A stretch of DNA of 64,000 nt from Acidobacteriota bacterium (GTDB lineage Bacteria > Acidobacteriota > Polarisedimenticolia > J045). Shown here piece by piece: positions 3,832 to 62,696 of this stretch. Every line of letters begins with the position of its first letter. Within the stretch, counting starts at the first letter, position 1. The translations under genes and the position numbers were made by a program. The notes under the pieces were generated by a model, which saw only the letters and a program-made list of their open reading frames with translations, searched no databases and was not told the DNA's origin. The stretch is from positions 12,749 through 76,748 of the forward strand of contig RFHH01000164.1 in the NCBI GenBank assembly GCA_003696075.1, written 5' to 3'.

Positions 3832-3847
3832 GCCGCCCCCCCGGCCG

Positions 3848-7729: not shown

Positions 7730-7767
7730 GGGGCGGGGAACCGGGTGGAGTCGGCGGGAGACTCTCG

Positions 7768-33007: not shown

Positions 33008-33225
33008 CCGCCGGTCGCCGGCCCTGGCACCGTGCGACCCGGACCGGATGTCCGCCCCCCGTGGGTCCGATCGTGGAACGCCTGTCCATCGTGGCATTAC
33101 TACCTTCGGCAAGCCGTTCGCGCCAGAGACGGCTCGGAAGCGCGTGCCGGGCGGAGGATGTGGTGGATAATCCGCAGCGCCCGCCAGACCGCCGGTGGCC
33201 GGCGGCCGCGGGGCATGGACCCTCG

Positions 33226-39787: not shown

Positions 39788-39865
39788 TCCGGCGGCCCTT
39801 GCCCGCCCTCCCGCCGCTGCCGAATATTGCCGGGGGGGCCGCGGCCCGATTCCGGAGGGTGGGCG

Positions 39866-47946: not shown

Positions 47947-49413
47947 ACGCACCACTCGCCGAACGCCGCGAGTTTCCGCAGCGGCAGCTCCGCGTCGATG
48001 ACGACGTGCGTGGCACCGTACCGGCGCGCCGCCTCGCGCACCGCGCCGGCGGTCAGCCGCCGGTAGCGCTCGGCCAGTTCCTCCTCTCCGGTTCCGCGAC
48101 CCACGGGCCCGAGCAGCAGATCGCAGCGCTCGCGCCATTCCCGGAACGAGGTGTAGGGGTGATAGACGCGGCTGGCCACGATGGCGCGCCGCGAGACGGA
48201 CCAGTTGCCCCGGAACCAGGGCGGCGCCACCAGAACCGCGTCCTCCGGAAGGCGGTCGCGGCACCAGCCCAGGGCCCGTTCGAGATCGGTCGGCGCCCGG
48301 AACCAGCTCGTCAGAGCCGGTCTGGCGGCGTCGGCGAGCCCGAACAGAGGACTGGGCACAGCGGCGAGCGCGGCGATCAGGAACGCTCTGAGGGCCATGC
48401 CCGCCTGCCGCCATCCCCCCTCCGCCGCCCATGCGCAGGCCCCGAGGAAGAAGAACAGCGGCGTCAGCAGGGGGAAGAGGCGGAACGGAAAGGTGGCCAG
48501 GAAGCGGTCGAAGCCCGCGACCCGGGCGACGCACCCCGCGGCAAAGACGGACGCGGCGGCCGCTTGCCACACGGTGGCGGCGCGCCAGAGGGGGCGCTCC
48601 CACAGTTGCGATCGGGCGACGAGGACGTTCACCGCGAACAGCACGCCGAGGAGGACGAGGCGCCTCACCGGCCAGGTCGCCGGGTCGAGGTGCTCGGGCA
48701 TCTTGACGAGCGCCATGTAGCGCCACTCCTCCGCCGACGTCACCCCCCCGGGCGCGAGAAGCAGCGGGAGGATCCCGACGGCAGCCGGGACGGCGAACAG
48801 CGCCGCCGCCGCTGCGGCGCGGCGGGCGGACGGGGGCCGCCGCAGCGCCGGTAGGAGGGTGATCGCCCCCCATCCTCCCACCGAGGGATGAAGGGCGGTG
48901 GCGAGGCCCGCCCACAGCCCGGCCTTCTCCACGGCGCTCCGGCTCACCGCCCGGAGCGACAAGAAAAGGGCCGCGTAAGCGAACGTCTTCGCCTCGAAGG
49001 TCTTGAGCATCCAGCTCCGGGCCACGATCGACTGGCCCGAGCCGAGCCACAGCGCCAGGGCAAGAGCGGCCAGCGGCGCGGTGAGCCCAGCCTCGCGCGC
49101 GACGACGAGGAGGACCGCGAGTCCGCCAATCCATCCGGCGAGACGCCCCATCGCGCCGAAGGTCTCGATGTCGAACGGGATGCTCAGCGGACCGGCGATG
49201 TGATTGAACAACCAGTGCTCGGGTGCCGGCTGGCGGAGCGTCCAGTCGTTCGCGAGGAAGTCCGGGTGCCCGAGGCGGTAGAGCCGGATCAGGTAGAAGT
49301 TCTCGTTACCCCACGGGACCGCGCCTCCGTGCTGGAGGCCGGTCAGGACGAGAAGGACGGCGAGCGCGGCCATCCAATGGTGCCGGCGTCCCGGCGTGCG
49401 CTTGTCGTCCATG
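47835..49413 (-). CDS. Polytopic membrane protein, possible GT-C-fold glycosyltransferase / polymerase
   Basis: The ATG at 49411-49413 follows GGAGGGAGGG. The protein has many transmembrane helices and a C-terminal soluble domain. The 3' end overlaps the convergent deacetylase by about 110 nt. Confidence 0.5.
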
Positions 49414-49444
49414 CCCTCCCTCCGCTTCGCGGCGTTCCGGCCCG

Positions 49445-50629
49445 TCAACCGCGCGCCGCACTCCGCGGCCTCCAGAACTCCCTCCCGAGAACGAGATCGC
49501 GATGCCGGCGCAGCACGTGGGCCATCCAGTCTACGTCCTCGTCGCGCAGATCCTGGTGCACGGGAAGCTCGACCACCGTCCGGCGCCACAGGTCCACCTG
49601 AGCGAAACGGCCCGGGGGGCAGGCCGGGTGATGGCGAGACCAGAACGAGATCGTCTCGATGCCGGCCTCGGCCAGGCGCGCCCGCAGCGCCGCCCGGTCG
49701 CGCGCGAGCACCGGGTAGGAGAGCGGGCAGGTCCCCTCGCCGAGCGGGGCGAGCGGACTGGGGGCCGCCTCGCCGGCCAGCTCGTGCAGCCGGAGGAAAT
49801 TTCGCCGCCGGCGGCTCACGATCTCCGCCCGGCGGGCGGCACGCGCCAGCCGCGCCACCCACGGGGAGACGCCGAGATCGAGCATCTCAGGATCGAGCTC
49901 CTCGGTGTCGACCCCGACCACCTCCGCTCTTCCGAGGCGCTTGAGCAGGCGGGCCGTGCGGGTGGCCAGGTCGGCGGCTCCCCGCCGGAGCCTCCCCCCG
50001 CCGAGCCGCGCGGCGTCGAGCAGGCGATGCAGCGTGAACGCGGCGGTGGAGAGTCGATCGGGCCTGCGGGCCGGCCCGGGAGGGGCGTCGCCGCCGCGGT
50101 TCCAGCGGAGCATCCCCCCGTGCGGGACCGGAAGCGTCTTGTAGAGGCAGAAAATCGCGAAGTCGCCGAAGGAGCCGAGCGGCCGCCCCCCCTCCTCGCC
50201 GTAAAGCGACAGCGCGCAGTCCTCGATCAGCGGGACACCCGCCTCGTCGCACAGGCGCCGGATCTCGGCGATCGGCTGCGGACGTCCCAGGTAGTGGGTG
50301 ACATACACCGCGGCGGGCCCTGCCGCGATCCGCCGGTGGAGCTCCTCGGGATCGGCGCGCAGGTCGGGACGAATGGGATAGAAGTCGAAGCGAACGCCCA
50401 GAACCCTGAGAACCTCGACCTCGATGCCGTGATGATAGGCCGGCATGAGAACCGTGCTGCCCGGACCGAGGCCCAACGCGCGCGCCCCTGCCCACAGCGC
50501 GTTGCGGGCCATGTAGTAGAAGCGCGATCGAGGATCGTCGAACGGCGGATCCGGAGCAGCCGGCTCCCTGGGGAGAACGTCGCCTGGGCGCAGCACCGGG
50601 TCGAACGTCACGTAGCGCGGCTTCGCCAT
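49445..50629 (-). CDS. DegT/DnrJ/EryC1-like PLP-dependent aminotransferase-fold protein
   Basis: The motifs MPAYHHGIEVEV and IEDCALSLYG are present. The start was chosen at MAKPRYVTF. Confidence 0.6.
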   Translation of the reverse strand: MAKPRYVTFDPVLRPGDVLPREPAAPDPPFDDPRSRFYYMARNALWAGARALGLGPGSTVLMPAYHHGIEVEVLRVLGVRFDFYPIRPDLRADPEELHRRIAAGPAAVYVTHYLGRPQPIAEIRRLCDEAGVPLIEDCALSLYGEEGGRPLGSFGDFAIFCLYKTLPVPHGGMLRWNRGGDAPPGPARRPDRLSTAAFTLHRLLDAARLGGGRLRRGAADLATRTARLLKRLGRAEVVGVDTEELDPEMLDLGVSPWVARLARAARRAEIVSRRRRNFLRLHELAGEAAPSPLAPLGEGTCPLSYPVLARDRAALRARLAEAGIETISFWSRHHPACPPGRFAQVDLWRRTVVELPVHQDLRDEDVDWMAHVLRRHRDLVLGREFWRPRSAARG

Positions 50630-51750
50630 CTCGCCGTCCAACGCTTGAGCCGCGGCACCGCGCCGAACTTCACCGCCTCGTGGAGCCGGCCCGCCGCCGT
50701 CGGAAGATAGAGGTACACCCAATAGACATCCCGGAGGGCCGGACGCCATTCCTGCTTGGCGGGCGTGACGTCGCCGAGAAAGTCGAACTCGCTCAGCCCT
50801 CTCCGGAAGGCGTCCCGGAGCAGTTCCTGCCACAGCAGCTGGCCCGGAGAATACCGCGCCATCTCCGGCGCGTACCCGATCTTCAGGCAGTACTCGCGGC
50901 CTTCGACTTCCAGGTTGAGATTGAACGCGATGCGGCGGCCCCCGGCGGTGAGGAAGCTGAGCCGCAGCCATCCGAGTTCGGCGGCGCGCGCGCACCACTC
51001 GGCGTAGAACGACGCCAGCTCCGGCCGGCAGCGGATCGCGCTGCCGCGGCGCCCCTTCCAGCCGGCCGCCTCGATCTCGAGAGCGTCGCCGAGAGCGCCC
51101 GCCAGCCGCTCTCCTCCCGTGACCGTTTCCACGGCGACTTCACCTTCCCGCTTCTCGAGGTTCCGGCGGCGCCGCCGAAGGTTGGCGCGGAACTTGGTGC
51201 GAAGACCCGCCTCGTAGGCCTCCCAGTCCCCTTCGATCCGGACGTAGGGAGACGGTACGGCCTTCCAGAGCCGGAACCGGCCGCCCGCCGCCTGCCAGCC
51301 CTCCAGCCAGGGGCGCAGACTCCGCGCGTCTCCCGGGACGAGCTCGAGGACGGCGGCGTCGCCGCGGTGGCGCAGCCACCGGAACAACGCCTCTCCGGCC
51401 TCCCCTGCGCGTTTCGGATCCACGAGCGGGGTGAACCGGTACGAGTGGTGGTTCGTCAGGGAGCGCCACAAGCGGGCGCGCGCCAGGCGCGCCGCGCCCG
51501 GGGGAACCACCAGCGGAAGGCCGAGCGCCGGCTCTCCGGCCGCGCGCAGCAGGAGCACCGCCGTGCGTCCTTCCGGTCCGAAGTGTTTCCAGAAGATCGA
51601 GACCCAGGAATGGCTGGCGAACGGATCGGCTGCGCCCACCGCGCGCCGTAACGCCTCCCATTCGGCCGCGCAGGCGTCGAAACGGCCGCGGTCCGCGATC
51701 GGCTCGACCTCGCAGTTCGCCGCGGCCGCCCGGCCCGCGGGCTCCGGCAT
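50608..51750 (-). CDS. FemAB-family / CelD-like (Acetyltransf_6) acyltransferase, second copy
   Basis: The protein is paralogous in architecture to 29513-30622 (ELGWLRLSFLTAGGRRIAFNLNLEVEGREYCLKIGYAPEMARYSPGQLL). Confidence 0.65.
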   Translation of the reverse strand: MPEPAGRAAAANCEVEPIADRGRFDACAAEWEALRRAVGAADPFASHSWVSIFWKHFGPEGRTAVLLLRAAGEPALGLPLVVPPGAARLARARLWRSLTNHHSYRFTPLVDPKRAGEAGEALFRWLRHRGDAAVLELVPGDARSLRPWLEGWQAAGGRFRLWKAVPSPYVRIEGDWEAYEAGLRTKFRANLRRRRRNLEKREGEVAVETVTGGERLAGALGDALEIEAAGWKGRRGSAIRCRPELASFYAEWCARAAELGWLRLSFLTAGGRRIAFNLNLEVEGREYCLKIGYAPEMARYSPGQLLWQELLRDAFRRGLSEFDFLGDVTPAKQEWRPALRDVYWVYLYLPTAAGRLHEAVKFGAVPRLKRWTARWRSRAT

Positions 51751-51832
51751 GATGTCCGCTCCCCTCGGCTCCGGCGCGCGCCGCACGCGCGTCGCGATCG
51801 CGCCCCGGGTTCCATAGTAACTTAGGCGCCAC

Positions 51833-53587
51833 GTGAGAGAAGACGAGCGCCACCGCCGGCCGACCGCGCCGCCGCCCGCCGGGGCCGGTTCCGCCTCCGC
51901 CCTCGCGGCGCGCGCGCTGCCGCCGCTGATCCTGTTGCTCGGACTGGCCCTTCACGGCATCGGGGTGCTCCAGCCGCTCGACCAGCCGCACTGGCGAACG
52001 ATCGACGACGCGGCGATCGCCCGGAACTTCGCCCGGGAGGGGCTCGACCCGGCGTTCCCGCGGGTCGACTGGCGGGGAGAGGGACCGGGCTTCGTCGAGA
52101 TGGAGTTCCCGTTCCTTCCGTGGGCGCTGGGCGTCGCGCACCGTGTCGCGGGCGTGCCGCTCCGGTGGGGACGCCTGCTGGCCTTTCTCGCCACGTGCGC
52201 GGCTGCCCTGATCTTCGACGCGCTGGCACGGCGGCGCCTGCCGCCGGCGGGCCGCGCGGTGGCGTTGGCCGCCTTCGTCCTCAATCCCACCCTCGCCGGC
52301 GTGTCGAACGAGATCCAGCCGGACGCGCTGATGCTCGCGCTGGCGCTCGGCGCCATCCTGAGCTTCGAGGCGTGGCTGTCGGCCCGGAGCGGCCGGCTGT
52401 GGCCGGCGTCGCTCCTCGCCGCTCTGGCCGTGCTGGCGAAGGCGCCGGCCGCTCTGATCCTGCCGGTCGTCGCCGTCCGCTCGCTCCGCCACCAGGGAGG
52501 GTGGCGCAAAGGCTTGTCGGGCGCCGCTCGCGTGAGCCTGGCCGCCGCGCTTCCCGCGGCCGTCTGGTACGGCCACGCCCACGGACTCTGGCTCCGTTAT
52601 GGGAACTCGCTCGGCTTGAGCGACGAGTCTCACTGGATCGGTGTCGACATGCTCGGGCATCCCGGCTTCTTGGCCGACATCGCGAAGCTCGAGTTCGCCG
52701 CGGTGATCCTGCCCGGCGGCGCGCTCCTCCTCCTGCTGGCGATCGCCGCCCGGTGGCGGGGCCGCGGATGCGACCTGGAGGTGGCCTGGCTCGGCGCGGC
52801 CTACCTGTTCTACCTCGCAGCAGGACGGACCACCGGGGACGCCTGGGCAGCCTACTACCACCTCGCCAGCCTCCCTCCGACAGCGCTCATGGTCGGTGCC
52901 GCCGCCCAGTTCCTCCTGGAGGCGGGGCGCGGGCGCGCTCTCCTTTTCGCCGCCCCGGCCGCCGCGATCGGAGGGGCGGCGTGGGGCCTCGCGCGCTCCG
53001 CCGACTCCGGCCTTTCTCCGCCGGCGCTCGTCTCGGCGGCCGCCGCCGGGGCCGCGGCGGGTGCGCTCGCCGCGGCGTTCCTCCTGCTCCCGGGGCGCGC
53101 GTCCGGTTCGCGCCGCACGGTGCTCGCGGCCCTCGGAGCCCTGGCTGCGACGGTCCTGGTTCTCGACGGGGCGAGGCGGAGCTGGTGGCACGACCGCCCG
53201 CGGCCTCCCCACGCTCTCCACGAGTGCGCACGATCCTTCGCGCCGCTCCTCGATGGCGCCCGCCGGATCGTCGCCAGCGGCGGCGACTGCCGCGACCCCA
53301 CGGGACGCCCGGTCGCCTACCACAAGCCCTACATGTTCTTCTGGACCGGGACCACGGGCTTTTCCGTCTGCCGCCAGGAGCTGGGATCGGTCGACGTGTC
53401 GAGGTTCCTCGCGGCGGGAGCCCGCTGGATGATCGTCGAGGTGCAGGACCTCGACGCCGCTCCTGGCGGGTGGCGGCTCGTCGAGCGTCACCGCGTGCGC
53501 GCGCGGTGCCCGGAGGCCTTCCTGATCGACCTGAGCGAGGAGCCGGTCACGCCGGCGAACGGAGCGAGTGGCGGGCGAGGAGGGTGA
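51833..53587 (+). CDS. GT-C-fold membrane glycosyltransferase (ArnT/PMT-like, GT39/GT83-like)
   Basis: The polytopic N-terminal half has the loop-1 motif FAREGLDPAFPRVDW typical of ArnT/PMT families. The start is GTG. Confidence 0.6.
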   Translation: MREDERHRRPTAPPPAGAGSASALAARALPPLILLLGLALHGIGVLQPLDQPHWRTIDDAAIARNFAREGLDPAFPRVDWRGEGPGFVEMEFPFLPWALGVAHRVAGVPLRWGRLLAFLATCAAALIFDALARRRLPPAGRAVALAAFVLNPTLAGVSNEIQPDALMLALALGAILSFEAWLSARSGRLWPASLLAALAVLAKAPAALILPVVAVRSLRHQGGWRKGLSGAARVSLAAALPAAVWYGHAHGLWLRYGNSLGLSDESHWIGVDMLGHPGFLADIAKLEFAAVILPGGALLLLLAIAARWRGRGCDLEVAWLGAAYLFYLAAGRTTGDAWAAYYHLASLPPTALMVGAAAQFLLEAGRGRALLFAAPAAAIGGAAWGLARSADSGLSPPALVSAAAAGAAAGALAAAFLLLPGRASGSRRTVLAALGALAATVLVLDGARRSWWHDRPRPPHALHECARSFAPLLDGARRIVASGGDCRDPTGRPVAYHKPYMFFWTGTTGFSVCRQELGSVDVSRFLAAGARWMIVEVQDLDAAPGGWRLVERHRVRARCPEAFLIDLSEEPVTPANGASGGRGG

Positions 53588-54740
53588 GCGCCTTCTCCCG
53601 CGACCGCCGCGGAAGGAGCAGCAGGAGCCGGGTCAGCAGGAGCACGGCCGTCGCCTTGGGGGCGAGCCAGCGGGAAGCGGGTGCGCCGGCCTTCAGGCGT
53701 GCGTATCGCAGCGAGAGCAGCGCCTCGTGCAGCACGCCCCGCCAGCGGAACGGGCCGGGCCACAGGAGTGCGCGCGCGAGGCAGGACTCGGCCCAGAACG
53801 GGCGCTCGACGCGCCCGAGAGCCGAGCGCAGGCAGGTCAGGCGCCTCGCCAGCCGCGCCGGCCGGGCCCGCACCGGCGCGCCGGTGCCGGGGCAGGCAGG
53901 GGCGATCCAGGGCCAGAGTTCCCGGGCGTAGCAGAGGGCGAGGTGGAAGTGCCTCCCCGCGCCGGAAGCCTCCGCGAACTCGGCCGCGCGTTCCAGCGTT
54001 CCGTCATCGGCGACCCGGCGCGCGAGACGGGCCACGTCACCCAGGTCGCGCAGCGTGACCGTGCCCGATGCGAGCGCGTGCCAGCTGAGGTACGCCAGCT
54101 CGTGGGCGGGATCGGGACGCAGGATGGAACCCAGCCTCCCGCCGGCGGGGCGGGCCTCGTTCCACCATGCGCCCATGTCGAACGAGACCGGATCGGTGCG
54201 AGGCGAGAGGTCCCAATGGAGCTCGACGACGGCGGCCGGTTTTCCCGGGCCCCGACTCCACGTCTCGTGATAGCGCTCGATTTCGGGATAGACGCTGGCG
54301 CGCCGGGTGTAACCCAGGCCGGCCATCGCCGTGCGCGCCGTCTCGAGTCCCTCCCGGTCGACCAGGATGTCGATGTCCTCGCACTCCCTCAGCGAGGGGT
54401 CCGCATAGAGGCTCTCGGCCAGAGCGACACCCTTGAGCGGCATGGCGCGCACGCCGCGCTGCGCCAGCAGGTCGAGCACTTCCCCTGCGAGGAGGAGCTG
54501 GGCGGCGTCGCGGGCCCGGAACTGCGCGTGGAGCGCCGCCGCCTCGGGATCGTCCCCGCGGCGCGCGCGCCACCAGGCGTAGAGGGGCAGCAGGCGATGG
54601 AGACGGGCCGTCTCGACCGCGCCACGAGGTTCCCGTCCGGCGGCCGGCCGCTCCGGGCGGAGGTCGGCCAGCGCCAAGTCCGCGAGCCATGCGAGAGGCT
54701 CCGGCAGGCCGGGCCTCACCGCTGCGATCGGCTCTTTCAT
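53547..54740 (-). CDS. Uncharacterised nucleotidyltransferase-family protein (PF14907 / NTP_transf_5-like)
   Basis: The nucleotidyltransferase core MPLKGVALAESLYADPSLRECEDIDILVD is present. The gene lies immediately downstream of lanA in the same orientation. The start was chosen at MKEPIAA. Confidence 0.6.
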   Translation of the reverse strand: MKEPIAAVRPGLPEPLAWLADLALADLRPERPAAGREPRGAVETARLHRLLPLYAWWRARRGDDPEAAALHAQFRARDAAQLLLAGEVLDLLAQRGVRAMPLKGVALAESLYADPSLRECEDIDILVDREGLETARTAMAGLGYTRRASVYPEIERYHETWSRGPGKPAAVVELHWDLSPRTDPVSFDMGAWWNEARPAGGRLGSILRPDPAHELAYLSWHALASGTVTLRDLGDVARLARRVADDGTLERAAEFAEASGAGRHFHLALCYARELWPWIAPACPGTGAPVRARPARLARRLTCLRSALGRVERPFWAESCLARALLWPGPFRWRGVLHEALLSLRYARLKAGAPASRWLAPKATAVLLLTRLLLLLPRRSREKALTLLARHSLRSPA

Positions 54741-54976
54741 CGGCGGCCGCCGGCCGCCTCGTGCCTCCGGGTCGGTTCGCGCACGTCGCTCCCCTCGTCC
54801 GGGCCCCCGCCGGCGGAGATATCGGATTATCGCCGAACCGCCCGGACAGCGGGTCGCCTCGGTCGATCGCCCGCTCCCCGGCGGGCGATCGAGGCCGTGG
54901 AGACCGGGGGCGGCCGAGCAGAAAAAGAGCAGAGTTCCCGATCGGAAGCCGGCCGGCCTCGTCCCGGAGAGCGAAC

Positions 54977-54998
54977 GGGCCGGGGAGATCCCCGGCCC
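54977..54998 (-). terminator. Perfect 9-bp GC stem-loop (GGGCCGGGG-AGAT-CCCCGGCCC) about 25 nt downstream of the lanA stop; candidate attenuator or transcript-stabilising hairpin
   Basis: An inverted repeat is read directly in the sequence. There is no canonical U-tract, so partial termination or read-through into the nucleotidyltransferase gene is possible. Confidence 0.3.
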
Positions 54999-55021
54999 GC
55001 CGCGGAAGAGGAAGCTGCCGG

Positions 55022-55216
55022 TCACAAGGTGATCGTGGGGCAATCGATGAAGGTGTGCGGGCACCAATTGGCCTGGGTGAAGCAGTAGATCTGCACCGTC
55101 CTTTTCTGCGCACCTCCGACGCGGGAGAGGTCCTCGCGCGTCAGGCGGCGGACGGTCTCGCGGTCGAGCGTGAGCCTCGGCTCGTCCCGCACGTCGTCGT
55201 TGCGTTCATGGTTCAT
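55022..55216 (-). CDS. lanA: Class I lanthipeptide precursor peptide (64 aa)
   Basis: The ATG at 55214-55216 is preceded by GGAGGA. The translation is MNHERNDDVRDEPRLTLDRETVRRLTREDLSRVGG|AQKRTVQIYCFTQANWCPHTFIDCPTITL. The leader has an FxLD-like box (LTLD) and a double-Gly cleavage site. The core has 3 Cys and 5 Thr. The gene sits next to the lanT/lanB/lanC genes. Confidence 0.8.
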   Translation of the reverse strand: MNHERNDDVRDEPRLTLDRETVRRLTREDLSRVGGAQKRTVQIYCFTQANWCPHTFIDCPTITL

Positions 55217-55401
55217 GGTCGGGTCCTCCAGGGCTCCCCGGAGCGTTCGCCCCGGGGGCCTCCACCCGGTTAGCACCGCGGCCGGGCGCATTTCACGCGA
55301 GGTTCTCCCGGCGAGACGGGCTTCCGGCGCCGCGGTCGCGCCCGGGTTTTGTCGTGGCACCGGGTTCATCGACTCGCCGGCCCTCGGATCCGCCCCTCGC
55401 C

Positions 55402-57690
55402 TCACGAACGCGCGGTCGCCGGACTCATCTGCGCGGCGACGAGGCGCGGGTAGATCCTCCCGTGCGCGAGCAGCTCGGCGTGCGTTCCGGTCTCCGCGAT
55501 CCGCCCGCGCTCGAGGACGACGATCCGGTCGGCATCGGCGACCGTGCTCAGCCGGTGGGCGATGACGATCTGCGTGACCCTCATCGATCTCAGGCGGTCG
55601 ACGACCGCGCGCTCGCCGAGCGCGTCGAGTTCGCTCGTCGCCTCGTCGAGGACGACGAGCGCCGGGCGGCGCGCGAAGACGCGGGCCAGCGCGAGCCGCT
55701 GGCGCTGCCCTCCGGAGAGCGACCGGCCGCCGTCCGGGAGCACGGTGTCGTAGCCGAGCGGCAGCGCGGCGATCTCCTCGTGGATCCCGGCGAGGCGAGC
55801 CGCCTCCACGATCCGCTCGCGCGTGCAGCGCGGATCGCCGAGCGAGACGTTGGCCGCCACCGAGGCGGCGAAGACGTAGGGGCGCTGGGGAACGATCCCC
55901 ATGCGCTGGCGGAGCGCGCCGGGGTCGAACGCTCTGCGGGGAACGCCGTCGTAGAGGATCTCGCCCTCCACGGGGTCCAGCAGACCGACGACGAGCCGGG
56001 CCAGCGTCGTCTTCCCGGCACCGGAGCGCCCGACGATCGCCACTCGCTCCCCGGGCCGGATCGCCAGGGAAACATCCCGGAGAACCCACGGCTCTCGCTC
56101 CCCGTAGCGGAAGGAAACCCGGCGGAGTTCCACGCCGCCCCGCAGCACGGGCGGCGCCGCAGACGGCGCCGGGCTCGAGTCGGCGGGAGTTTCGAGCACT
56201 TCGGCGATCCGCTCGGTGTGGCTGCGCAACCGCGCCAAGGAGAGACCGGTCGCGAGCATCCCGGCCAGCGGGGCGAGAAAGCCTCCCGCCAGCATCGACA
56301 GCGCCAGCATCGTCCCGACGGAGAGCCGTCCGTCGAGGACGGCCACGCCTGCCCCTCCGAGGACGGCCGCCGGCGCCGCCTGGCGAACGAGCAGCCCTGC
56401 GGCCTCGACCCAGGATTCCAGGCGGCCGCGCGCGAGCGCGGCGTTCAGCTCCTCGGCGTAGCGCTGCGCCCAGCTCCGGACGGCCTCACTCTCCGCGCCG
56501 AGCGCCTTGAGCGTTTCCATCCCCGCGAGCATCTCCACGAGCTCCCCCTGCTCCCGGGCGCGGCTTTCGAGTTCCGACGCGGCCAGTTCCCGCTCGCGCC
56601 GGCGCGACGCCGCGAGGAGCACCGCCTGCGCCGCCCCGGCCGAGAGCGCGATCGCCCCCGCGGGCGGCCAGATCCAGGCGAGCGCCGCCAGGTGGACCGC
56701 GGCGAACAGGGCGTCGAGCAGGCCGGAGAGGACGGCGCCGGTCAGCGCATCCCGCACGACGCGATTGCTCGCGAGGCGGGTGAGCAGGTCTCCCGAAGAG
56801 TGGGCCAGAAAGAAGGCGTACGGGAGGCGGGCCAGGTGCTCGACGAACGCGGTCGACAGCCGTTCCTCGAGGAGCGTGCGCAGGGCGACCAGCGCGCGCC
56901 CGCGGGCCAGCGTCGCCAGCGCCGATCCCGCGGCGACGCCCAGCAATCCCGCGACGAAGGCGACGAGGACGGCGCTCTTCGCCCCCGGCGCGATCCTGTC
57001 GACGAGGCTCCCCGTCAGCAGCGGAACCGCGAGCGCACCGAGCTGGACGGCGAGCGTGAGAGCGAGGCAGACCGCGACCCTCCCCTTGTGTCTCCAGAGG
57101 AGCGGGAGCAGCCAGTGACGCCGCCGAGACGAGGGAACGGCCGCCGGGCACGGGCGCGGCTCGAAGACCAGTGCCACCCCTGTGAACTCGCGGCGGAGGA
57201 GCTCGCGCGAGACCTTCCGCCGGCCGAACGAGGGATCGACGACGACGGCGCCGCGCCGGGTGGCCCGCTCGAAGACGACGAAGTGGTCGAATCCCCAGTG
57301 CAGGATCGACCCCGGGGGGAGGAAGCGAAGATCGCCCAGCGACAGCCGGAGGCCGCGGCCCGACAGGCCCCAGCGTTCCGCCGCGTCCACGATGTCGCGC
57401 GCCGTCGCGCCGCCCGCGCTCCGGCCCAGAGCGGCCCGCACGGTGCCAAGAGGGACGCGGCGCCCGTGCGCGGCGAGGACCATCGCCAGGCAGGCGGCGG
57501 CGCAGTCCGACTCCGAAAAGCCGGCGACGAAGGGGATCCGGCGGCGGCGGAAACGGCGCACCCGGACCGGCTCGCCGTAGCGTCCGCGCCGCGCGTGGTG
57601 GCGCAGCGCCTCCGCGCGGAACAGGGCCCGGCGGCCCGCTCTCGTCCCGTTTCCCCCGGCGCGGGCGCCCGTCTCCGGTCCGGTGCTCAT
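55402..57690 (-). CDS. lanT: Peptidase-C39-domain ABC transporter (bacteriocin / lanthipeptide processing exporter)
   Basis: An N-terminal C39 domain with catalytic Cys (FSESDCAAACLAMVLA) is followed by six transmembrane helices and an ABC ATPase with Walker A (GRSGAGKTT), signature (LSGGQRQR) and Walker B (LVVLDEATS) motifs. ATGA overlap with the lanB stop. Confidence 0.9.
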   Translation of the reverse strand: MSTGPETGARAGGNGTRAGRRALFRAEALRHHARRGRYGEPVRVRRFRRRRIPFVAGFSESDCAAACLAMVLAAHGRRVPLGTVRAALGRSAGGATARDIVDAAERWGLSGRGLRLSLGDLRFLPPGSILHWGFDHFVVFERATRRGAVVVDPSFGRRKVSRELLRREFTGVALVFEPRPCPAAVPSSRRRHWLLPLLWRHKGRVAVCLALTLAVQLGALAVPLLTGSLVDRIAPGAKSAVLVAFVAGLLGVAAGSALATLARGRALVALRTLLEERLSTAFVEHLARLPYAFFLAHSSGDLLTRLASNRVVRDALTGAVLSGLLDALFAAVHLAALAWIWPPAGAIALSAGAAQAVLLAASRRRERELAASELESRAREQGELVEMLAGMETLKALGAESEAVRSWAQRYAEELNAALARGRLESWVEAAGLLVRQAAPAAVLGGAGVAVLDGRLSVGTMLALSMLAGGFLAPLAGMLATGLSLARLRSHTERIAEVLETPADSSPAPSAAPPVLRGGVELRRVSFRYGEREPWVLRDVSLAIRPGERVAIVGRSGAGKTTLARLVVGLLDPVEGEILYDGVPRRAFDPGALRQRMGIVPQRPYVFAASVAANVSLGDPRCTRERIVEAARLAGIHEEIAALPLGYDTVLPDGGRSLSGGQRQRLALARVFARRPALVVLDEATSELDALGERAVVDRLRSMRVTQIVIAHRLSTVADADRIVVLERGRIAETGTHAELLAHGRIYPRLVAAQMSPATARS

Positions 57691-60600
57691 CGCGCCATGG
57701 CCCGGGGGGCGGTGGCCGGCGCGCGCGCGGCGCGGGAGGTCTCGATCCGCCCCAGGAAGTCGCCCACGACCAGCTCGCAGGCGCGGTGGAGGTCCCGCAT
57801 GATCCGGTTCACGGCCATGTGGGCGAGGCTCGCGGCGATCTCGGCGACCGAGCACGACAGGCGGCGCGAGCGCTCGAGAGAGCGCAACTCGAGCCCGAGC
57901 CGGCGGGCCGCCTCGTCGCGGCGCTCGAGGATGGCGAGCATCCCCGCCTCCCAGTCCTCCACCGCCTCGCCGGCGAGGAGCCGTTCGAGCCGTCCCCTCT
58001 CCTCGCGCAGCCTGGAAGCGAGCGCGCGGCGCAGTGCGGCGGCGTCCGGCAGGAAGCGCGCCGCCCCCTCGCGGATACCTCCGGCAAGGGCAGCCCGCGC
58101 TCCGGCTTCGAAGCCGAGTGCGGCCAGAAGGCGGCCGACCGACAGGAATGCCGCCAGCCAGCGCTCCGAGTCGCGGCCCGTTTCGCGGAGGATCTCCAGG
58201 AGATCGACCGCCGCGTCGCTGTCGGCACCGAAGAACCGCTCGACCCGCTCGATCGCCTCCGCTCCGCCGTAGCGCTCGATCTCGCGCCGGTAGGTGTCGA
58301 GCGCGACGCGCACGAGCCCGCCGTCCTCGAGCGCGCGGCGCGCCGGGCGGAGCAGCACCTCCTGCGCCTGTGCAACGTCCGGGCCGAGGGCGCGGACGCG
58401 CAGCCGGACGTGCGGATCGGGATCGGCGTACCGGACGAAAAACCAGCAGGCGGCGCTGCGCGAGGCGACCAGCGCGCGGGCCGCCGGGGCCATCTCCCGG
58501 AGGAGGAGATCCTCCGCCGAGGAGGGCCCGGCATAGAACTTCAACGTGATCCACTCGCTTCCCGGGGCGAAGCACCGGCGGGTGACCGCGGCGGGAGCGG
58601 GGCGCGGTGGCGCCGCGCGCGCGGGGCGGGGAGCGGAAAAGAACGGAACCACCGCCTCGACCGCGTAGGCGCCGTCCGGGCCCTGCCCGGGATAGCGGTC
58701 CGGCGGCGGGAACCACTCCCGCAGCTCGACGCGGCCGCGTGAGCGCGCGGTCCGCGCGAACAGCTCCGCCAGGAGGACGTTCTCGAAGTCGATGGGGAGT
58801 TCGTGATCGAACTCGGCGATCACCACCCGCCGGGGTAAGCCGCGCCGCTCGCGCCAGCTCCGCAGGCGGCGGATCAACGAGGCCCCGCGCTGATCCGCCC
58901 ACGCCTCCCAGTCGTCCCGCGCCACGGTCCAGCGGGCGCGCGCGAGCACGACGCCGCGCCACACGACCCGCGGGAGCCACCGCGCCGAGCCGACGGGGCC
59001 CCAGTCCCAGGCGACACCCGGGAGGAGATCCTGCGCGGCCAGGGAGGTCAGGAACCGGTAGACCGGAAGCGCGTTCGGCGCCACGTGATGGGCGCTCGAC
59101 AGGAGCGGAACGACCTCCCGCCCGTGCCGCCGCGAGTGCAGCACGACCCTCCCCTCCTCCACGGAGACCAGGAGGTCGTCCAAGGGCAGGACTTGCGGCG
59201 AGCCGCCGCGGCCGGCGAGGCAGGGGATCTCGTAACGCCGGAGGGCCGGCCGCTCGAGGACGTTCCCGGCGCTGCCGCCAGGGTCGTGCACGACCTCGGC
59301 GAGAAGCACGCCCGGCCACAGCTCCTCCTCGCGCCTGGCCAGCTCGCCAAGGTGCCGTTCGAGCTCGCCGTCGAGCGCTGCGAAGCGGGCGAGCAGGCGC
59401 GCCCCCGTGGGACCGCTCGCGCCGCGGAACAGGATCGACGGAGCGCGGCCCGAGGGACGCGCGAAGGCGACGAGGGCCGCGAGCGAGGGCGGCAACGGCC
59501 GCGGCGCAGCGGCCTCCATCCGGGCGATCGTCCGCTCGTCGAGCTCGATTTCGGCGGCGCCCGACTCCCAGGCGCGGCGGGCGAGATCCAGCAGCGCCTC
59601 CTCGCGGGGACCCCAGGGCGCGCGGCGCGCGGCGCGGGAACCCGGCGCGATCGGCAGCTCGCCGATCCACCCGGCGGCTGCCGGACGCGGTCCGGCGAAG
59701 GCCTCGAGCAGGCCCGTCTCCGCGTCGAGGGCAGCCAGGAGGGGCACGCGCTCGCGGCCGTAGCGTTCGACGAAGGCGTCCCGGAACCGGTCGAGATCGG
59801 TGGGCGCGGGCTCGGGCGCCGTCCGGTGGAGCAGGCGGATCGCGCCGGCGATCCGGGAGATCGACTCCTCGCCGAGCCGGATCCGCGACCCGGTGCGATA
59901 GCTGTCGGCGCGCACGAAGCGGGCGTCTTCCGCGCCGCCGGAAAGGCTCCGGAGATCGGCCCGGAGCCGCTCGCACGCGGCGGGCAGCGAAACGAGCGGA
60001 GCGGCGTCGATGCGATCGAGAACGGAAAGCGTCCGCGCAAGCACCCTCCCCGCGTCGGAACCGGCCCCGGCGAGGCGAGCGGCGAGATCGCGCTGCGGAT
60101 CCCGTCCCGTGAAGCACGGGCGGGCCTCCGGCTGGAGCAGCTGGCAGTCGACCAGCTCGCGAACGAAGGCCTCCGCGGCCTTTCGCTCGTGGCCCTCGGC
60201 GACCAGCAGGTCCACCGCCTCCCCGAAGCTCAGCCCCCGGCGAGCGGCGGCGACGAGGCGATCCAGCGGCCCGCTCGGTCGGACCGCCACCTCCTCGGCG
60301 CCCGTCTCGGTGCCGGGGAGGCCCGGCCTCGCCGCGAACCGCCACTTGCCGGCCGCGCGGTAGAGCGTTTCGTTGGCGGTGAGGCGCTCCGCCTCCGGGC
60401 CTTTCGTTCCGCGCCGGAACCGGGCGAGCCATCGCGCCAGGAACGCGGAATCGAGGCGGGTGCGGCGCCGGATCGACTCCCGCGACCCGATCCGGAACTC
60501 GTCGCCCCCGCCGACGTGCGCGAGGGCGCAGGCGGAGAACAGGCCGAACGGGGTGGGCCGGCACGACATGCGGAGGAGGTAGGACAGGGCCGCTTCCTCG

Positions 60601-60902
60601 ACCCGCGCGCCGGAGCCGGGGTGGCCGCCCGCCCAGAGATCGAAGCGTCGCGCCAGATCGGGCGAGGCGATCCAGATCGCGGCCCGCACCGAGGGATCGC
60701 GCCACCGCTCGCGGACGAAATCCCGCATCCGCTCGCGATCCCTCTCCGCCGCGGGGATCAGGTCGCCGCCGGACGCGGAGGGTGCGGCGAGGCCCTCGAA
60801 GACGGGCCGGACGGCGGATCCCGGAAAGAGGGGGATCCGCGCCAGGGCGAATCCGGCGGGCGTCAAGGGCACGGTGGCGTTCCCGCGGCGTTTCATCGCC
60901 AT
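57687..60902 (-). CDS. lanB: Lanthipeptide dehydratase (class I LanB, full length with C-terminal elimination domain)
   Basis: The N-terminal region (FALARIPLFP...) matches the Lant_dehydr_N family. The C-terminal SpaB_C / thiopeptide-type domain carries WFFVRYADPDPHVRLRV. At about 1071 aa it is a typical LanB size. Its start overlaps the lanC stop. Confidence 0.9.
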   Translation of the reverse strand: MAMKRRGNATVPLTPAGFALARIPLFPGSAVRPVFEGLAAPSASGGDLIPAAERDRERMRDFVRERWRDPSVRAAIWIASPDLARRFDLWAGGHPGSGARVEEAALSYLLRMSCRPTPFGLFSACALAHVGGGDEFRIGSRESIRRRTRLDSAFLARWLARFRRGTKGPEAERLTANETLYRAAGKWRFAARPGLPGTETGAEEVAVRPSGPLDRLVAAARRGLSFGEAVDLLVAEGHERKAAEAFVRELVDCQLLQPEARPCFTGRDPQRDLAARLAGAGSDAGRVLARTLSVLDRIDAAPLVSLPAACERLRADLRSLSGGAEDARFVRADSYRTGSRIRLGEESISRIAGAIRLLHRTAPEPAPTDLDRFRDAFVERYGRERVPLLAALDAETGLLEAFAGPRPAAAGWIGELPIAPGSRAARRAPWGPREEALLDLARRAWESGAAEIELDERTIARMEAAAPRPLPPSLAALVAFARPSGRAPSILFRGASGPTGARLLARFAALDGELERHLGELARREEELWPGVLLAEVVHDPGGSAGNVLERPALRRYEIPCLAGRGGSPQVLPLDDLLVSVEEGRVVLHSRRHGREVVPLLSSAHHVAPNALPVYRFLTSLAAQDLLPGVAWDWGPVGSARWLPRVVWRGVVLARARWTVARDDWEAWADQRGASLIRRLRSWRERRGLPRRVVIAEFDHELPIDFENVLLAELFARTARSRGRVELREWFPPPDRYPGQGPDGAYAVEAVVPFFSAPRPARAAPPRPAPAAVTRRCFAPGSEWITLKFYAGPSSAEDLLLREMAPAARALVASRSAACWFFVRYADPDPHVRLRVRALGPDVAQAQEVLLRPARRALEDGGLVRVALDTYRREIERYGGAEAIERVERFFGADSDAAVDLLEILRETGRDSERWLAAFLSVGRLLAALGFEAGARAALAGGIREGAARFLPDAAALRRALASRLREERGRLERLLAGEAVEDWEAGMLAILERRDEAARRLGLELRSLERSRRLSCSVAEIAASLAHMAVNRIMRDLHRACELVVGDFLGRIETSRAARAPATAPRAMAR

Positions 60903-62156
60903 CCTCCCACCTCGGGCGCGGAGAGCAGGAGCACGCGGTCCCAGGCCGGCGGTTCCGGTCCCAGTGCCTCGAGGAGCACGAGGCCGACACCCGCGGCCCC
61001 GATCAGGAAGCAGCGCCGCTCCCCCGGCGTCGGGGCCCGCCCCGGCGCCGGGCCCGGGACGGGCTCCAGCCCGGCGATCCCGCCGACGTCCGGCCGGTGG
61101 AAATCGACCGCCCGGCGCAGCCACCGGCGGGCGGCGCGGAGCAGAGCGGGGACACGCAGGGCGCGGCCGAGGCGGCCGCACAGGTGGGCCACGCCGGCCG
61201 CTCCGTGGCAGAGGCTGGCGTCGGCCACGCCCGCGAGCTTCGGCGGGAGAAAGCCGGCCCGCAGCGCGAGGGCCCGCGCCCGGGCGCACCAGCGCCGATC
61301 GCCCGTGACCCGAGACGCCATGGCCATCGCGGACGCGACGCCGAGATCGCCGTAGCACCACCCCAGCCGCGAGCGCGCGGGGCGACCGGCTGCACGGCCG
61401 GTCATCGCCGGGAACCGGAGCGCCCCCCCGCGACGCTGCATCCGCCAGGTCCAACGGAGCGCCCCGGAGATCACGGACCGCAGCTCCTCGTCGTCACCGG
61501 GGCCGGCCGCTGCCGCGCGCGCGAGGAAGGCGGCGACGCCGGGGACGCCGTGCGCCAGGCCGAGGTTGTACTCGTAGTCACCGAAAGGTGTGGCCCAGCG
61601 GACGCCGGACCCGTCGCGCTCGGCGCGGCGCACGATCCGCCGCACCGCCTCCTCGAGCGCCCGGCCGGCCTCGCGATTCCCGCCGCGCTCGAGCGCTGCG
61701 ACACCGTAGCCGGCGAGACCGTACATCAGCTCGACCGGCGCCGTATCGCCGGCCCGGCGGCACAGCCCGCCGATGAGAGCGTCGGCGGGCCGCACCGCGC
61801 GCTCGAAGGCCAGGGGAAGCAGGCCTTCGCGCGCGAGGTGGGCCGCGACCCAGACCGGGCCGAGGAGCCCGCCGAAGAGCGCCGCGCTCGAGCAGCGGCG
61901 CGGCGCGGCGGCCAGCGCCGCGGAGAGCCGGAGCGCGGCGGCGCGCGACCAGCGCTCCGAGCCGAACGAACGCCCGGCGTAGGCGAGGAAGAGCGCGACG
62001 CCGGCGGTGCCGGTGGCGAGGGTGGGGTCGTGTGCGTCCTCTTCATCGCCCGCCAGCGTCTCGGCGATGGCCTCGACCGAGGCCCGCGCGCGGCGGCCGA
62101 GCTGCCGGTCCACCGGAAGGAAGGCCGCGCGGGCGCGATCCTGGACAGCGGCTGCC
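60893..62156 (-). CDS. lanC: Lanthionine synthetase C-like cyclase
   Basis: The three zinc-ligand motifs of LanC are present: GLAHGVPG, WCYGDLG and LCHGAAG. The start was chosen at MAAAVQ; the track ORF extends to 62299. Confidence 0.85.
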
Positions 62157-62291
62157 ATCGGCTCCGGCTCCCGTACCGATGGCACCGCGGCGGCTCTCTT
62201 TTCACGGCGCGGCGAGCGGATGCCGGAGTAGGATGTGGCCAGCGCCGCCGGCCGCGCCGCGGTCCGGCGTGCGGCGGGAGAAGGCGAGCCG

Positions 62292-62555
62292 ATGGGCAAG
62301 AAGAAGGGCTACGGGCGGGTCATATGGCCCGGCTTTTCGTACAAGCCGGCACCCCGCCATCTCGTGAAGGTCGGCCGGAACGATCCCTGCCCCTGCGGGT
62401 CCGGCCGCAAGTACAAGGAGTGCCACGAAAGCGAAGGGGACGCGTTCCTGGAGCGGCTGGCGCTCGAGGAGCAGAAGCGCCGGATCCGGGAGCGGCGGGA
62501 GCAGCTCAAGCGGGAGGGCGTTCCCTGGTACAAGCGCCTGTTCCTCCGGCGCTGA
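62292..62555 (+). CDS. Small SEC-C-motif (zinc-binding) protein
   Basis: The gene has a GGAGAAGG Shine-Dalgarno sequence, and the motif [16 protein letters not shown] is the SEC-C metal-binding signature. Confidence 0.65.
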
Positions 62556-62696
62556 GCCGCTCGCGGAAGCGGTCGGGGCCCCGATCCGAAAACTGGCGAA
62601 CCATAACGAACAAGGAGCCAGCTCAAGTCGCGGCCCCTCCGGCCGAGGAGTCCGGCAGGGCGGGTGCGCGCCGCCGGTCGGGCCGAGGGAGCCGGC

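What the first reader, a model, noticed from the sequence alone, without database searches (positions are those of the whole stretch)
55022..55216. Unannotated 64-aa LanA precursor hidden inside a run-on track ORF
The six-frame track shows this only as the tail of a spurious 355-aa ORF (55022-56089). Read on the minus strand, an ATG with a GGAGGA Shine-Dalgarno sequence opens the peptide MNHERNDDVRDEPRLTLDRETVRRLTREDLSRVGGAQKRTVQIYCFTQANWCPHTFIDCPTITL. The leader has an FxLD-type LanB-recognition box (LTLD) and a GG site for the C39 peptidase. The 27-29-aa core has 3 Cys and 5 Thr and no Ser, which allows up to three methyllanthionine rings plus dehydrobutyrines. The core shows no obvious similarity to nisin-, epidermin- or Pep5-type cores, as far as can be judged by eye.
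Basis: seen in the sequence. Interest (0 to 1): 0.85.

Follow-up and report, generated by a model that had tools for sequence, protein, structure and literature searches.

The report
Class I lanthipeptide precursor gene
This small gene very probably encodes the precursor of a ring-containing (lanthionine) peptide and sits inside a complete set of genes for modifying and exporting it; the peptide sequence is unique, but the type of system is already well known.

Summary
The 64-codon ORF at 55216->55022 (minus strand) is real, and it is almost certainly a class I lanthipeptide precursor (LanA). It has an ATG start, a GGAGGA ribosome-binding site 7 nt upstream, and third-codon-position GC of 0.88. 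It lies in a same-strand operon, lanC-lanB-lanT(C39)-lanA. LanB is full length, LanC keeps its zinc and acid/base motifs, and the C39 peptidase keeps its catalytic Cys, His and Asp motifs.

The leader (LTLDRETVRRL...VGGA) is not a classic FxLD type. It belongs to the already described LxLxKx5L...Gly-Gly leader family. A profile built from 57 LanB-adjacent precursors in other phyla hits it at E=1.7e-8, and nothing else in the window is hit.

The family spacing puts the cut after GGA, giving a 28-aa core. Homology to the nearest relative favours a cut after GG, giving a 29-aa core. The core has 3 Cys, 5 Thr and no Ser. Its T-x4-C, T-x4-C, T-x3-C spacing suggests three methyllanthionine rings plus up to two Dhb residues.

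The peptide is a singleton among 1.8-5.8 billion proteins. It is not unannotated: NCBI lists it as hypothetical protein D6718_11065 from an Acidobacteria MAG. It is a new member of a known kind, of modest interest.

The parts
55022..55216 (-). lanA: 64-codon precursor gene plus stop. Leader is residues 1-36 (55109-55216) if cut after GGA, or 1-35 if cut after GG. Core is 55025-55108 (28 aa, QKRTVQIYCFTQANWCPHTFIDCPTITL), or 29 aa with the preceding Ala. Stop codon is 55022-55024.
   Evidence: Sequence and translation. GC3 0.88. Identical to NCBI D6718_11065. Hit by a profile built from other genomes' precursors at E=1.7e-8. Register analysis.
55224..55229 (-). Shine-Dalgarno GGAGGA, 7 nt upstream of the lanA ATG
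   Evidence: Read directly from the sequence
55233..55260 (-). GC-rich stem-loop in the lanA 5' untranslated region (GGCCCCCGGGGCGAACGCUCCGGGGAGCC), just upstream of the SD
   Evidence: Minimum-free-energy and centroid folds of the 331-nt lanA region, z=-2.4. Related repeats D1 and I2. Any function is inferred.
54976..54999 (-). Perfect 11-bp GC-rich stem-loop 23 nt after the lanA stop, with no adjacent U-tract. Possibly a transcript-stabilising or attenuating hairpin between lanA and the next gene.
   Evidence: Inverted repeat I10, 100% complementary. Folds. The consensus terminator scan did not call it.
55402..57690 (-). lanT: ABC exporter of 762 aa with an N-terminal C39 peptidase domain. 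Its ATG overlaps the lanB stop (ATGA).
   Evidence: Pfam Peptidase_C39 1.6e-26, ABC_membrane 1.7e-24, ABC_tran 3.3e-29. Full-length match to ComA and PCAT1 structures. Catalytic motifs SESDCAAACLAM and DHFVV...VVDP are present. Start codon.
57687..60902 (-). lanB: full-length class I lanthipeptide dehydratase (1069-1071 aa), with the glutamylation domain and the elimination domain. An internal ATG at 60896 overlaps the lanC stop (ATGA).
   Evidence: Pfam Lant_dehydr_N 1.2e-127 and Lant_dehydr_C 1.2e-51. MibB 5EHK 2.6e-37 over residues 60-1044, NisB 1.3e-27. Motifs RxxxRPTPFG, WFFxRYxDPxPHxRLR and YxxExERYGG are invariant among 30 relatives. NCBI D6718_11075, 1071 aa.
60893..62158 (-). lanC: lanthionine cyclase of 421 aa, counted from the ATG at 62158
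   Evidence: Pfam LANC_like 1.5e-34. Motifs GLAHG, WCYG and CHG are present and align to solved LanC-like proteins. Start chosen because the longer ORF would overlap the divergent SEC-C gene.
53547..54740 (-). PF14907 (NTP_transf_5) putative nucleotidyltransferase of 397 aa. It is on the same strand, 281 nt downstream of lanA, and is the last gene before a convergent glycosyltransferase. Whether it belongs to the cluster is uncertain.
   Evidence: Pfam 2.7e-39. No homologue in 80 related LanB loci. Only one distant relative in the k-mer protein search.

Best explanation
The ORF is the structural gene (lanA) of a class I lanthipeptide cluster in an Acidobacteria metagenome-assembled genome. The operon order is lanC-lanB-lanT-lanA.

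Inferred pathway:
1. The 64-aa prepeptide is bound through its leader (LxLxRx5L motif, residues 14-24) by the full-length LanB. LanB glutamylates Thr side chains using glutamyl-tRNA(Glu) and then eliminates glutamate to give dehydrobutyrines.
2. The zinc-dependent LanC adds the three Cys thiols to Dhb residues. From the spacing, the most economical topology is three consecutive N-to-C methyllanthionine rings. In 28-aa core numbering these are Thr4-Cys9, Thr11-Cys16 and Thr19-Cys23. Thr25 and Thr27 would remain as Dhb or be left unmodified.
3. The C39 domain of the ABC exporter LanT removes the leader at the double-glycine-type site during export. The cut is either VGGA|Q (family register) or VGG|A (homology to the nearest relative).

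What is shown here: the gene is present and has coding character; the enzymes carry intact family motifs; the leader belongs to a leader family that sits next to related LanBs. What is inferred: the chemistry, the ring pattern, the cut site and any bioactivity.
For: - ORF, SD and codon bias.
- Operon: GC3 frame plot and ATGA overlaps between lanC/lanB and lanB/lanT.
- Enzymes: LanB N- and C-terminal domains at 1e-127 and 1e-51, with full-length alignment to MibB and NisB. LanC at 1.5e-34 with GxAHG, WCYG and CHG motifs. C39-ABC with the Cys and His/Asp motifs.
- Leader family: jackhmmer from the peptide against six-frame translations of 80 loci encoding related LanBs recovers about 70 small ORFs. 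Most lie immediately beside LanB, with leader KKLxLxKETLRxLxxxELxxVxGG and Cys/Ser/Thr-rich cores. 39 of 80 loci carry at least one, and some carry up to 8.
- Specificity: a profile of 57 of these, excluding the window, hits only this ORF in the window (E=1.7e-8).
- Spacing: the Leu-to-cut distance is 22 residues in 46 of 49, and the window fits with LSRVGGA.
- Nearest relative: a Solirubrobacteraceae precursor, 45% identical over 40 aa, sharing GGAQK...CFT. A second precursor there shares PTIT near the C-terminus.
- Literature: the LxLxKx5L + GG + C39 combination is described in PMC7268733. Modification directed by double-Gly leaders in class I systems has been shown for VdsCB (PMC9680876).
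Against: - There is no experimental or transcript evidence.
- There is no orthologue anywhere, so conservation of this particular core cannot be tested.
- The curated NCBIfam leader model lant_leader_L1a scores only 12.3 bits, against a cut-off of 22 (E=0.14).
- The leader family was collected by iterating from the window peptide, so the leave-one-out test is not fully independent.
- The fifth motif position is Arg rather than Lys, and the N-terminus is acidic where most relatives are Lys-rich.
- No immunity, regulator, membrane-fusion or outer-membrane export gene was found among the ORFs scanned at 44-64 kb.
Confidence: 0.85

Rival explanations
1. Same gene and pathway, but the leader is cut literally after Gly-Gly (VGG|AQKRT...). 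This gives a 29-aa core that starts with Ala, rather than a cut after G-A. This rival concerns only one step (processing).
For: BLASTP aligns the window's GGAQK with GGAQK of the nearest relative (L039) and places a 1-residue gap in the window leader. In L039 the family register puts the cut after GG, before AQK. GG is the commonest pair in the family.
Against: With GG|A, the conserved hydrophobic leader positions would fall at -3, -6, -11 and -14. The family pattern is -4, -7, -12 and -15, kept by 46 of 49. With GA|Q they fall exactly in register. G-A sites and a second 'VGGA' member exist in the family.
Confidence: 0.4
2. The ORF is a chance open frame in a GC-rich intergenic spacer, and the cluster's true substrate lies elsewhere or has been lost.
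For: High-GC DNA produces many long spurious ORFs; there are 102 ORFs of at least 40 aa in 20 kb. There is no orthologue. The NCBIfam leader model scores below its cut-off.
Against: GC3 of 0.88 with GC2 of 0.46. A strong SD at ideal spacing. The only profile hit in 64 kb, at E=1.7e-8. Exact family spacing of motif to cut site. Cys and Thr are confined to the part after the cut site. No other Cys/Thr-rich small ORF with a leader was found at 53-64 kb.
Confidence: 0.03
3. The peptide is an unmodified double-glycine bacteriocin or signal peptide that uses only the C39 exporter. LanB and LanC act on another substrate.
For: C39-ABC exporters also serve unmodified class II bacteriocins and quorum-sensing peptides; the closest full-length solved structures are ComA and PCAT1.
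Against: The leader carries the LxLxKx5L-type motif that co-occurs with LanB across phyla. lanC, lanB and lanT are translationally coupled immediately upstream. The core has the Thr-x(3-4)-Cys spacing expected of a ring-forming substrate. No other candidate substrate was found.
Confidence: 0.04
4. Translation starts further upstream in the same frame (ATG 55291 or GTG 55276), giving a longer leader of 84-89 aa.
For: These in-frame start codons exist, with no intervening stop.
Against: There is no comparable SD. There is no codon-position GC signal upstream of 55216 (windows around 55200). The region folds into a stable 5' hairpin. Family leaders have 8-15 residues before the LxL motif, as in the 64-aa version. 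NCBI calls the 64-aa form.
Confidence: 0.04

Closest known systems
Double-glycine-leader class I lanthipeptides of Gram-negative phyla: LxLxKx5L...GG LanAs of Bacteroidetes (Walker et al. 2020, PMC7268733); viridisins VdsA1/A2, thalassomonasins, Ped15.1/15.2 (PMC9680876)
   Same: Separate LanB and LanC enzymes. The leader has LxLx(K/R)x5L and ends in a Gly-Gly-type site. A C39 peptidase-ABC exporter is in the cluster. The core is Cys/Thr-rich and has no lipid II motif.
   Different: The host is an Acidobacteria MAG. There is a single precursor, whereas several of those clusters carry more than one. The leader N-terminus is acidic and Arg replaces the motif Lys. The core sequence is unrelated. 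LanB is only about 26-30% identical to the Bacteroidota LanBs retrieved here. The products of those systems have been made heterologously; this one has not.
Uncharacterised precursors beside the LanB of a Solirubrobacteraceae MAG (locus L039, DASVPR010000050.1)
   Same: Nearest sequence relatives. One is 45% identical over 40 aa, including GGAQK and the CFT of the first predicted ring. Another shares a PTIT motif near the C-terminus. Its LanB is 37% identical.
   Different: L039 has six tandem precursors with longer, different cores. The phylum differs (Actinomycetota). The window leader is one residue shorter before GG.
Nisin / NAI-107 (microbisporicin) type class I lantibiotics (NisABTCP, MibABCD)
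   Same: The same two-enzyme chemistry: a full-length LanB related to MibB and NisB, and a LanC with the same motifs.
   Different: Those leaders carry FxLD and are removed by a subtilisin-like LanP or another protease, and NisT has no C39 domain (established knowledge). The window core lacks the SxxxCTP(G/S)C lipid II-binding motif (read directly; motif from PMC7268733). No LanP, LanFEG/I or LanRK was found.
Pinensins (Chitinophaga pinensis)
   Same: A class I lanthipeptide from a Gram-negative phylum. Walker et al. place pinensin in a precursor family (I 17) associated with a group of Bacteroidetes class I LanCs (PMC7268733).
   Different: The pinensin dehydratase is split into PinB1/PinB2 (PMC9680876), whereas here LanB is a single 1071-aa protein. 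The cores are unrelated.

Membership tests
Class I lanthipeptide precursor (LanA) | Encoded in a cluster with separate LanB dehydratase and LanC cyclase genes | tested here: met
   LanB: PF04738 1.2e-127 + PF14028 1.2e-51. LanC: PF05147 1.5e-34. Same strand, 185 nt plus one gene upstream, translationally coupled.
Class I lanthipeptide precursor (LanA) | Leader carrying a LanB recognition motif (FxLD, or the LxLxKx5L variant) | tested here: met
   Residues 14-24 are LTLDRETVRRL, i.e. LxLx[R]x5L, with Arg for Lys. Motif definition from PMC7268733. It is not a true FxLD box, because Leu stands in place of Phe.
Class I lanthipeptide precursor (LanA) | Core containing Ser/Thr and Cys that can form (methyl)lanthionine | tested here: met
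   3 Cys and 5 Thr, all after the cut site, spaced T-x4-C, T-x4-C, T-x3-C
Class I lanthipeptide precursor (LanA) | Match to the curated leader model NCBIfam NF038153 (lant_leader_L1a) at its cut-off | tested here: not met
   12.3 bits against a cut-off of 22, E=0.14. A profile built here from 57 LanB-adjacent precursors gives 30 bits, E=1.7e-8.
Class I lanthipeptide precursor (LanA) | Dehydration and thioether rings actually installed | not testable with these tools
   Needs co-expression and mass spectrometry
Double-glycine leader peptide processed by a C39 (PCAT/AMS) exporter | G-G/G-A/G-S at -2/-1, with hydrophobic residues at -4, -7, -12 and -15 | tested here: met
   With the cut after GGA: G(-2) A(-1), V(-4), L(-7), L(-12), V(-15). 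The heptad h-x-x-h-x-G-[GA] sits at the family's fixed offset. With the cut after GG the hydrophobic register is off by one.
Double-glycine leader peptide processed by a C39 (PCAT/AMS) exporter | Adjacent ABC exporter whose C39 domain keeps the catalytic Cys and His (not a degenerate C39-like domain) | tested here: met
   PF03412 1.6e-26. Motifs SESDCAAACLAM and DHFVV(x)nVVDP. Full-length similarity to ComA and PCAT1.
Double-glycine leader peptide processed by a C39 (PCAT/AMS) exporter | Cleavage at that site demonstrated | not testable with these tools
   Needs an in vitro protease assay or the product mass
Nisin/epidermin-type lipid II-binding lantibiotics | N-terminal SxxxCTP(G/S)C ring A/B motif | tested here: not met
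   Absent from the core QKRTVQIYCFTQANWCPHTFIDCPTITL (motif from PMC7268733). The mersacidin-type TxTxEC motif is also absent.
NHLP/Nif11-type bacteriocin export system (TIGR03796 NHLM_micro_ABC1) | Exporter reaches the equivalog cut-off and is paired with a second ABC subunit and a HlyD protein | tested here: not met
   536.5 bits against a cut-off of 853.3. No second ABC or HlyD gene among the ORFs scanned at 44-64 kb.

The most novel reading that the evidence does not exclude
The PF14907 nucleotidyltransferase-like gene directly downstream of lanA (53547-54740) could be a dedicated tailoring enzyme that decorates the lanthipeptide, for example by nucleotidylation or phospho-glycosylation. 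The lasso-peptide nucleotidyltransferase PsmN offers a loose precedent, being essential for glycosylation of pseudomycoidin (PMC11912497). Whether PsmN belongs to PF14907 was not checked. This would be a modification not known for lanthipeptides. The gene is on the same strand, is the last gene of the transcription unit, is absent from all 80 related LanB loci, and has almost no relatives. It may equally belong to the adjacent polysaccharide cluster.
Probability: 0.08. Interest if true: 0.6.

Novelty: new member of a known kind. Interest (0 to 1): 0.3.

Why it matters
This adds one previously uncharacterised class I lanthipeptide, with a core sequence found nowhere else in 1.8-5.8 billion public proteins. 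It comes from Acidobacteria, a phylum for which the literature searches run here found no isolated lanthipeptide. It also illustrates that the LxLxKx5L/Gly-Gly leader, first noted in Bacteroidetes, accompanies one LanB clade across Acidobacteriota, Myxococcota, Actinomycetota, Planctomycetota, Chloroflexota, Bacteroidota and a Paenibacillus, with a strikingly fixed 22-residue spacing from motif to cut site. The practical value is as a genome-mining lead (the expected masses are given). It does not change how these systems are understood, and standard tools such as antiSMASH or RODEO would be expected to flag it.

Tried and rejected
1. My first Pfam and NCBIfam scans of the large gene between lanC and lanT gave '0 families', which briefly suggested an orphan 1100-aa protein. 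This was my own frame error: the range 57687-60990 is out of frame. In frame it is a canonical LanB.
2. Orthologue searches for the peptide all found nothing real. The k-mer search of 5.8 billion proteins found only itself. The exact-sequence contig look-up had nothing on record. phmmer over 1.84 billion representatives returned itself plus two repeat-driven false positives, P0124 and P0125. The degenerate-DNA scan of JGI metagenomes gave only L081, which is part of a sigma-factor-like 804-aa ORF.
3. A second precursor in the cluster: none was found by the Cys/Ser/Thr small-ORF scan or by the family profile.
4. Conserved association of the PF14907 gene, the FemAB-like GNAT, PMT_2, DUF6798 or the amine oxidase with related LanB loci: none. 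I do not count any of them as cluster members.
5. Promoter and terminator consensus scans around lanA: no promoter-like site, and no minus-strand terminator.
6. Rfam on 53-64 kb: nothing at E<=0.1.
7. The literature search for PF14907 gave nothing relevant to RiPPs.

Full report
OBSERVATION. On the minus strand an ATG at 55216 is preceded by GGAGGA (55229-55224, 7-nt spacer). The mechanical ORF list shows this frame only as the end of a 355-aa GTG ORF at 55022-56089. A codon-position GC plot shows that from 55402 upward the coding frame is a different one. That other frame encodes a C39-ABC transporter with strong Pfam matches, so the 355-aa ORF is a run-on artefact of 72% GC DNA. Within the 64 codons, GC at positions 1/2/3 is 0.57/0.46/0.88, the local coding signature. 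The word 'unannotated' applies only to the track, because the identical 64-aa product is in NCBI as 'MAG: hypothetical protein D6718_11065 [Acidobacteria bacterium]' on a 78,792-bp contig.

CONTEXT. Four genes lie head to tail on the minus strand.
- lanC (62158->60893): PF05147 1.5e-34. The GLAHG, WCYG and CHG motifs are present and align to solved LanC-like proteins.
- lanB (60902->57687): PF04738 1.2e-127 plus PF14028 1.2e-51. It aligns over residues 60-1044 to MibB (5EHK, 2.6e-37) and to NisB (1.3e-27). The motifs RxxxRPTPFG, WFFxRYxDPxPHxRLR and YxxExERYGG are invariant in an alignment with 29 relatives.
- lanT (57690->55402): C39 peptidase, ABC membrane and ABC ATPase domains, with full-length similarity to the ComA and PCAT1 structures. 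The catalytic-Cys motif SESDCAAACLAM and the DHFVV...VVDP His/Asp motif are present.
- lanA follows, 185 nt downstream.

The lanC/lanB and lanB/lanT junctions are ATGA overlaps, which is consistent with translational coupling. Upstream of lanC a small SEC-C-motif gene runs divergently. An early '0 families' result for lanB was my own frame error and was corrected.

THE LEADER BELONGS TO A FAMILY THAT TRAVELS WITH THIS LanB CLADE. The nearest LanBs are at most 40% identical and come from Acidobacteriota, Myxococcota, Actinomycetota and other phyla. I fetched 80 genome loci encoding related LanBs, with up to 10-kb flanks, and searched their six-frame translations with the window peptide. phmmer, then jackhmmer, recovered about 70 small ORFs. 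Most lie just beside LanB, with a leader of the form (K/R)KLxLxKET(L/V)RxLxxxELxxVxGG followed by Cys/Ser/Thr-rich cores. 39 of the 80 loci have at least one such ORF, and some have up to eight. LanC is detectable in 49 of the loci and a C39-ABC in 41.

A profile built from 57 of these precursors, excluding the window sequence, hits the window ORF at E=1.7e-8 (30 bits) in a six-frame search of all 64 kb. The next hit is E=0.13. This test is not fully independent, because the family was gathered by iterating from the window peptide. [quoted passage not shown] In the window the motif reads L-T-L-D-R-ETVRR-L, with Arg for Lys. The curated NCBIfam model of this leader type (lant_leader_L1a) scores only 12.3 bits against a cut-off of 22, so formal membership of that model is not met.

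CUT SITE. Across the family, the distance from the first Leu of LxL to the residue after the double-glycine pair is exactly 22 in 46 of the 49 precursors that show the heptad h-x-x-h-x-G-[G/A]. In the window, the heptad at that fixed offset is L-S-R-V-G-G-A. This makes G-A the -2/-1 pair and puts Val, Leu, Leu and Val at -4, -7, -12 and -15, the classical double-glycine leader pattern (established knowledge). G-A sites occur in several family members, and one other member has the same VGGA. That predicts cleavage VGGA|QKRT and a 28-aa core.

Against this, BLASTP with the nearest relative (a Solirubrobacteraceae precursor, L039) aligns GGAQK with GGAQK and places a one-residue gap in the window leader. 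This would keep the cut after GG and give a 29-aa core. I weight these roughly 60:40 in favour of the 28-aa core and leave the question to experiment.

CORE AND MECHANISM (inferred). In 28-aa numbering the core is QKRT4VQIYC9FT11QANWC16PHT19FIDC23PT25IT27L. The three Thr-x(3-4)-Cys units suggest three sequential methyllanthionine rings. Two C-terminal Thr residues may become Dhb. From what is established for full-length LanBs and LanCs (NisB and MibB, NisC):
1. LanB would glutamylate Thr using Glu-tRNA(Glu) and then eliminate glutamate.
2. LanC would catalyse the thiol additions.
3. LanT would cleave the leader and export the product.

The expected masses are given. The core carries neither the nisin-type SxxxCTP(G/S)C motif nor the mersacidin-type TxTxEC lipid II motif (read directly; motifs), so its activity cannot be predicted. 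The lanA ORF is bracketed by GC-rich stem-loops: one in the 5' untranslated region (about 55233-55260), and a perfect 11-bp stem 23 nt after the stop (54976-54999). The 331-nt fold has z=-2.4. These could stabilise a lanA transcript or attenuate read-through, but this is speculative. No consensus promoter or minus-strand terminator was called, and there is no Rfam match.

UNIQUENESS. No orthologue exists in the collections searched.
- The k-mer search of 5.8 billion proteins found only the peptide itself.
- phmmer over 1.84 billion representatives found itself plus two repeat-protein artefacts.
- A degenerate-DNA scan of JGI metagenome contigs returned one false positive, inside a sigma-factor-like gene.

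At that level it is passed, because family members keep the G-G/G-A site and Cys-rich cores.

NEIGHBOURS. Downstream on the same strand, 281 nt after lanA, is a PF14907 (NTP_transf_5) gene. It has no counterpart in any of the 80 related loci and has only one distant relative in the k-mer search. Beyond it, from about 24 to 53 kb, lies a polysaccharide-biosynthesis region. It encodes GT1/GT4, a deacetylase, Wzy_C, GT2, a flippase, UDP-GlcNAc 2-epimerase, a DegT aminotransferase, a FemAB-like GNAT and PMT_2. The PF14907 gene could belong to either unit. A tailoring role would be new for lanthipeptides, but I give that low probability. No LanP, LanFEG/I, LanRK, HlyD or TolC-like gene was seen among the ORFs scanned at 44-64 kb.

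COMPARISON AND VERDICT. The system works like, and by every testable criterion except the NCBIfam leader cut-off is a member of, the double-glycine-leader class I lanthipeptides. These are known from Bacteroidota and Gammaproteobacteria: Ped15.1/2, thalassomonasins and viridisins, while the Bacteroidota pinensins belong to the same broader group (their leader type was not checked here) and have a split dehydratase (PMC7268733, PMC9680876). The differences here are the host phylum, a unique core, an acidic leader N-terminus, Arg in place of the motif Lys, and a one-residue-shorter spacing before GG. It is a new member of a known kind. The finding is a routine genome-mining lead rather than a surprise, so I score its interest at 0.3.

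Noticed in passing
window 53547-54740 (-): A PF14907 (NTP_transf_5) putative nucleotidyltransferase lies directly downstream of lanA on the same strand. It is a near-orphan, with one 31%-identical relative in 5.8 billion proteins. It is absent from all 80 related LanB loci. The Pol-beta-type motif (KGVALAESLY...EDIDILV) looks intact by eye.
   Followed up: partly
window 54940-55270 (-): The lanA ORF is bracketed by two GC-rich hairpins with related sequence: direct repeat D1 (54955-54984 and 55257-55286, 70%), and a 17-nt, 88% complementary pair (54971-54987 and 55234-55250) that could pair the 5' and 3' untranslated regions. In 72% GC DNA this may be chance.
   Followed up: partly
L001-L080 (precursors next to LanB): The LxLxKx5L...G-G/G-A leader has an almost invariant 22-residue distance from the first Leu to the cut site (46 of 49). 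It accompanies related LanBs in Acidobacteriota, Myxococcota, Actinomycetota, Planctomycetota, Chloroflexota (Kouleothrix), Bacteroidota and a Paenibacillus. This is much wider than the Bacteroidetes for which it was first described. Some loci carry 5-8 tandem precursors (L063, L039, L079).
   Followed up: partly
window ~24000-53600: A large polysaccharide or cell-envelope glycan biosynthesis region: GT1/GT4 (24020-25777), polysaccharide deacetylase (30598-31626), Wzy_C O-antigen ligase-like (31544-33244), GT2 (32878-34143), beta-helix/NosD protein (34430-36712), flippase (37988-39787), UDP-GlcNAc 2-epimerase (39788-41029), DegT aminotransferase (42677-43954), amine oxidase (44921-46939), DUF6798 membrane protein (47835-49862), FemAB-like GNAT (50608-51786) and PMT_2 (51833-53587).
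   Followed up: no
window 62292-62555 (+) and 62607-63998 (+): Divergent from lanC are a small (88-aa) SEC-C-motif protein and then a Ras/Arf-like small GTPase domain fused to a GAF domain. The second gene runs off the window end.
   Followed up: no
window 15501-18044 (-): An 847-aa protein with a CARDB domain and two stretches matching DUF7467. Its function is unknown.
   Followed up: no
window 409-8089 (-): Housekeeping block: thiolase, XdhC, a TetR regulator, and a long frame (3848-8089) carrying 2Fe-2S, hammerhead and molybdopterin-binding domains of a xanthine dehydrogenase/aldehyde oxidase family enzyme. The long frame is probably more than one gene read through in a stop-poor frame.
   Followed up: no
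P0124 (2017 aa), P0125 (231 aa): These are the only non-self phmmer hits to the peptide in 1.84 billion proteins, and both are repeat proteins. P0124 contains dozens of 'HTQEDLSRVGGELNHPV' units. The scores are inflated by repetition and do not reflect homology.
   Followed up: yes
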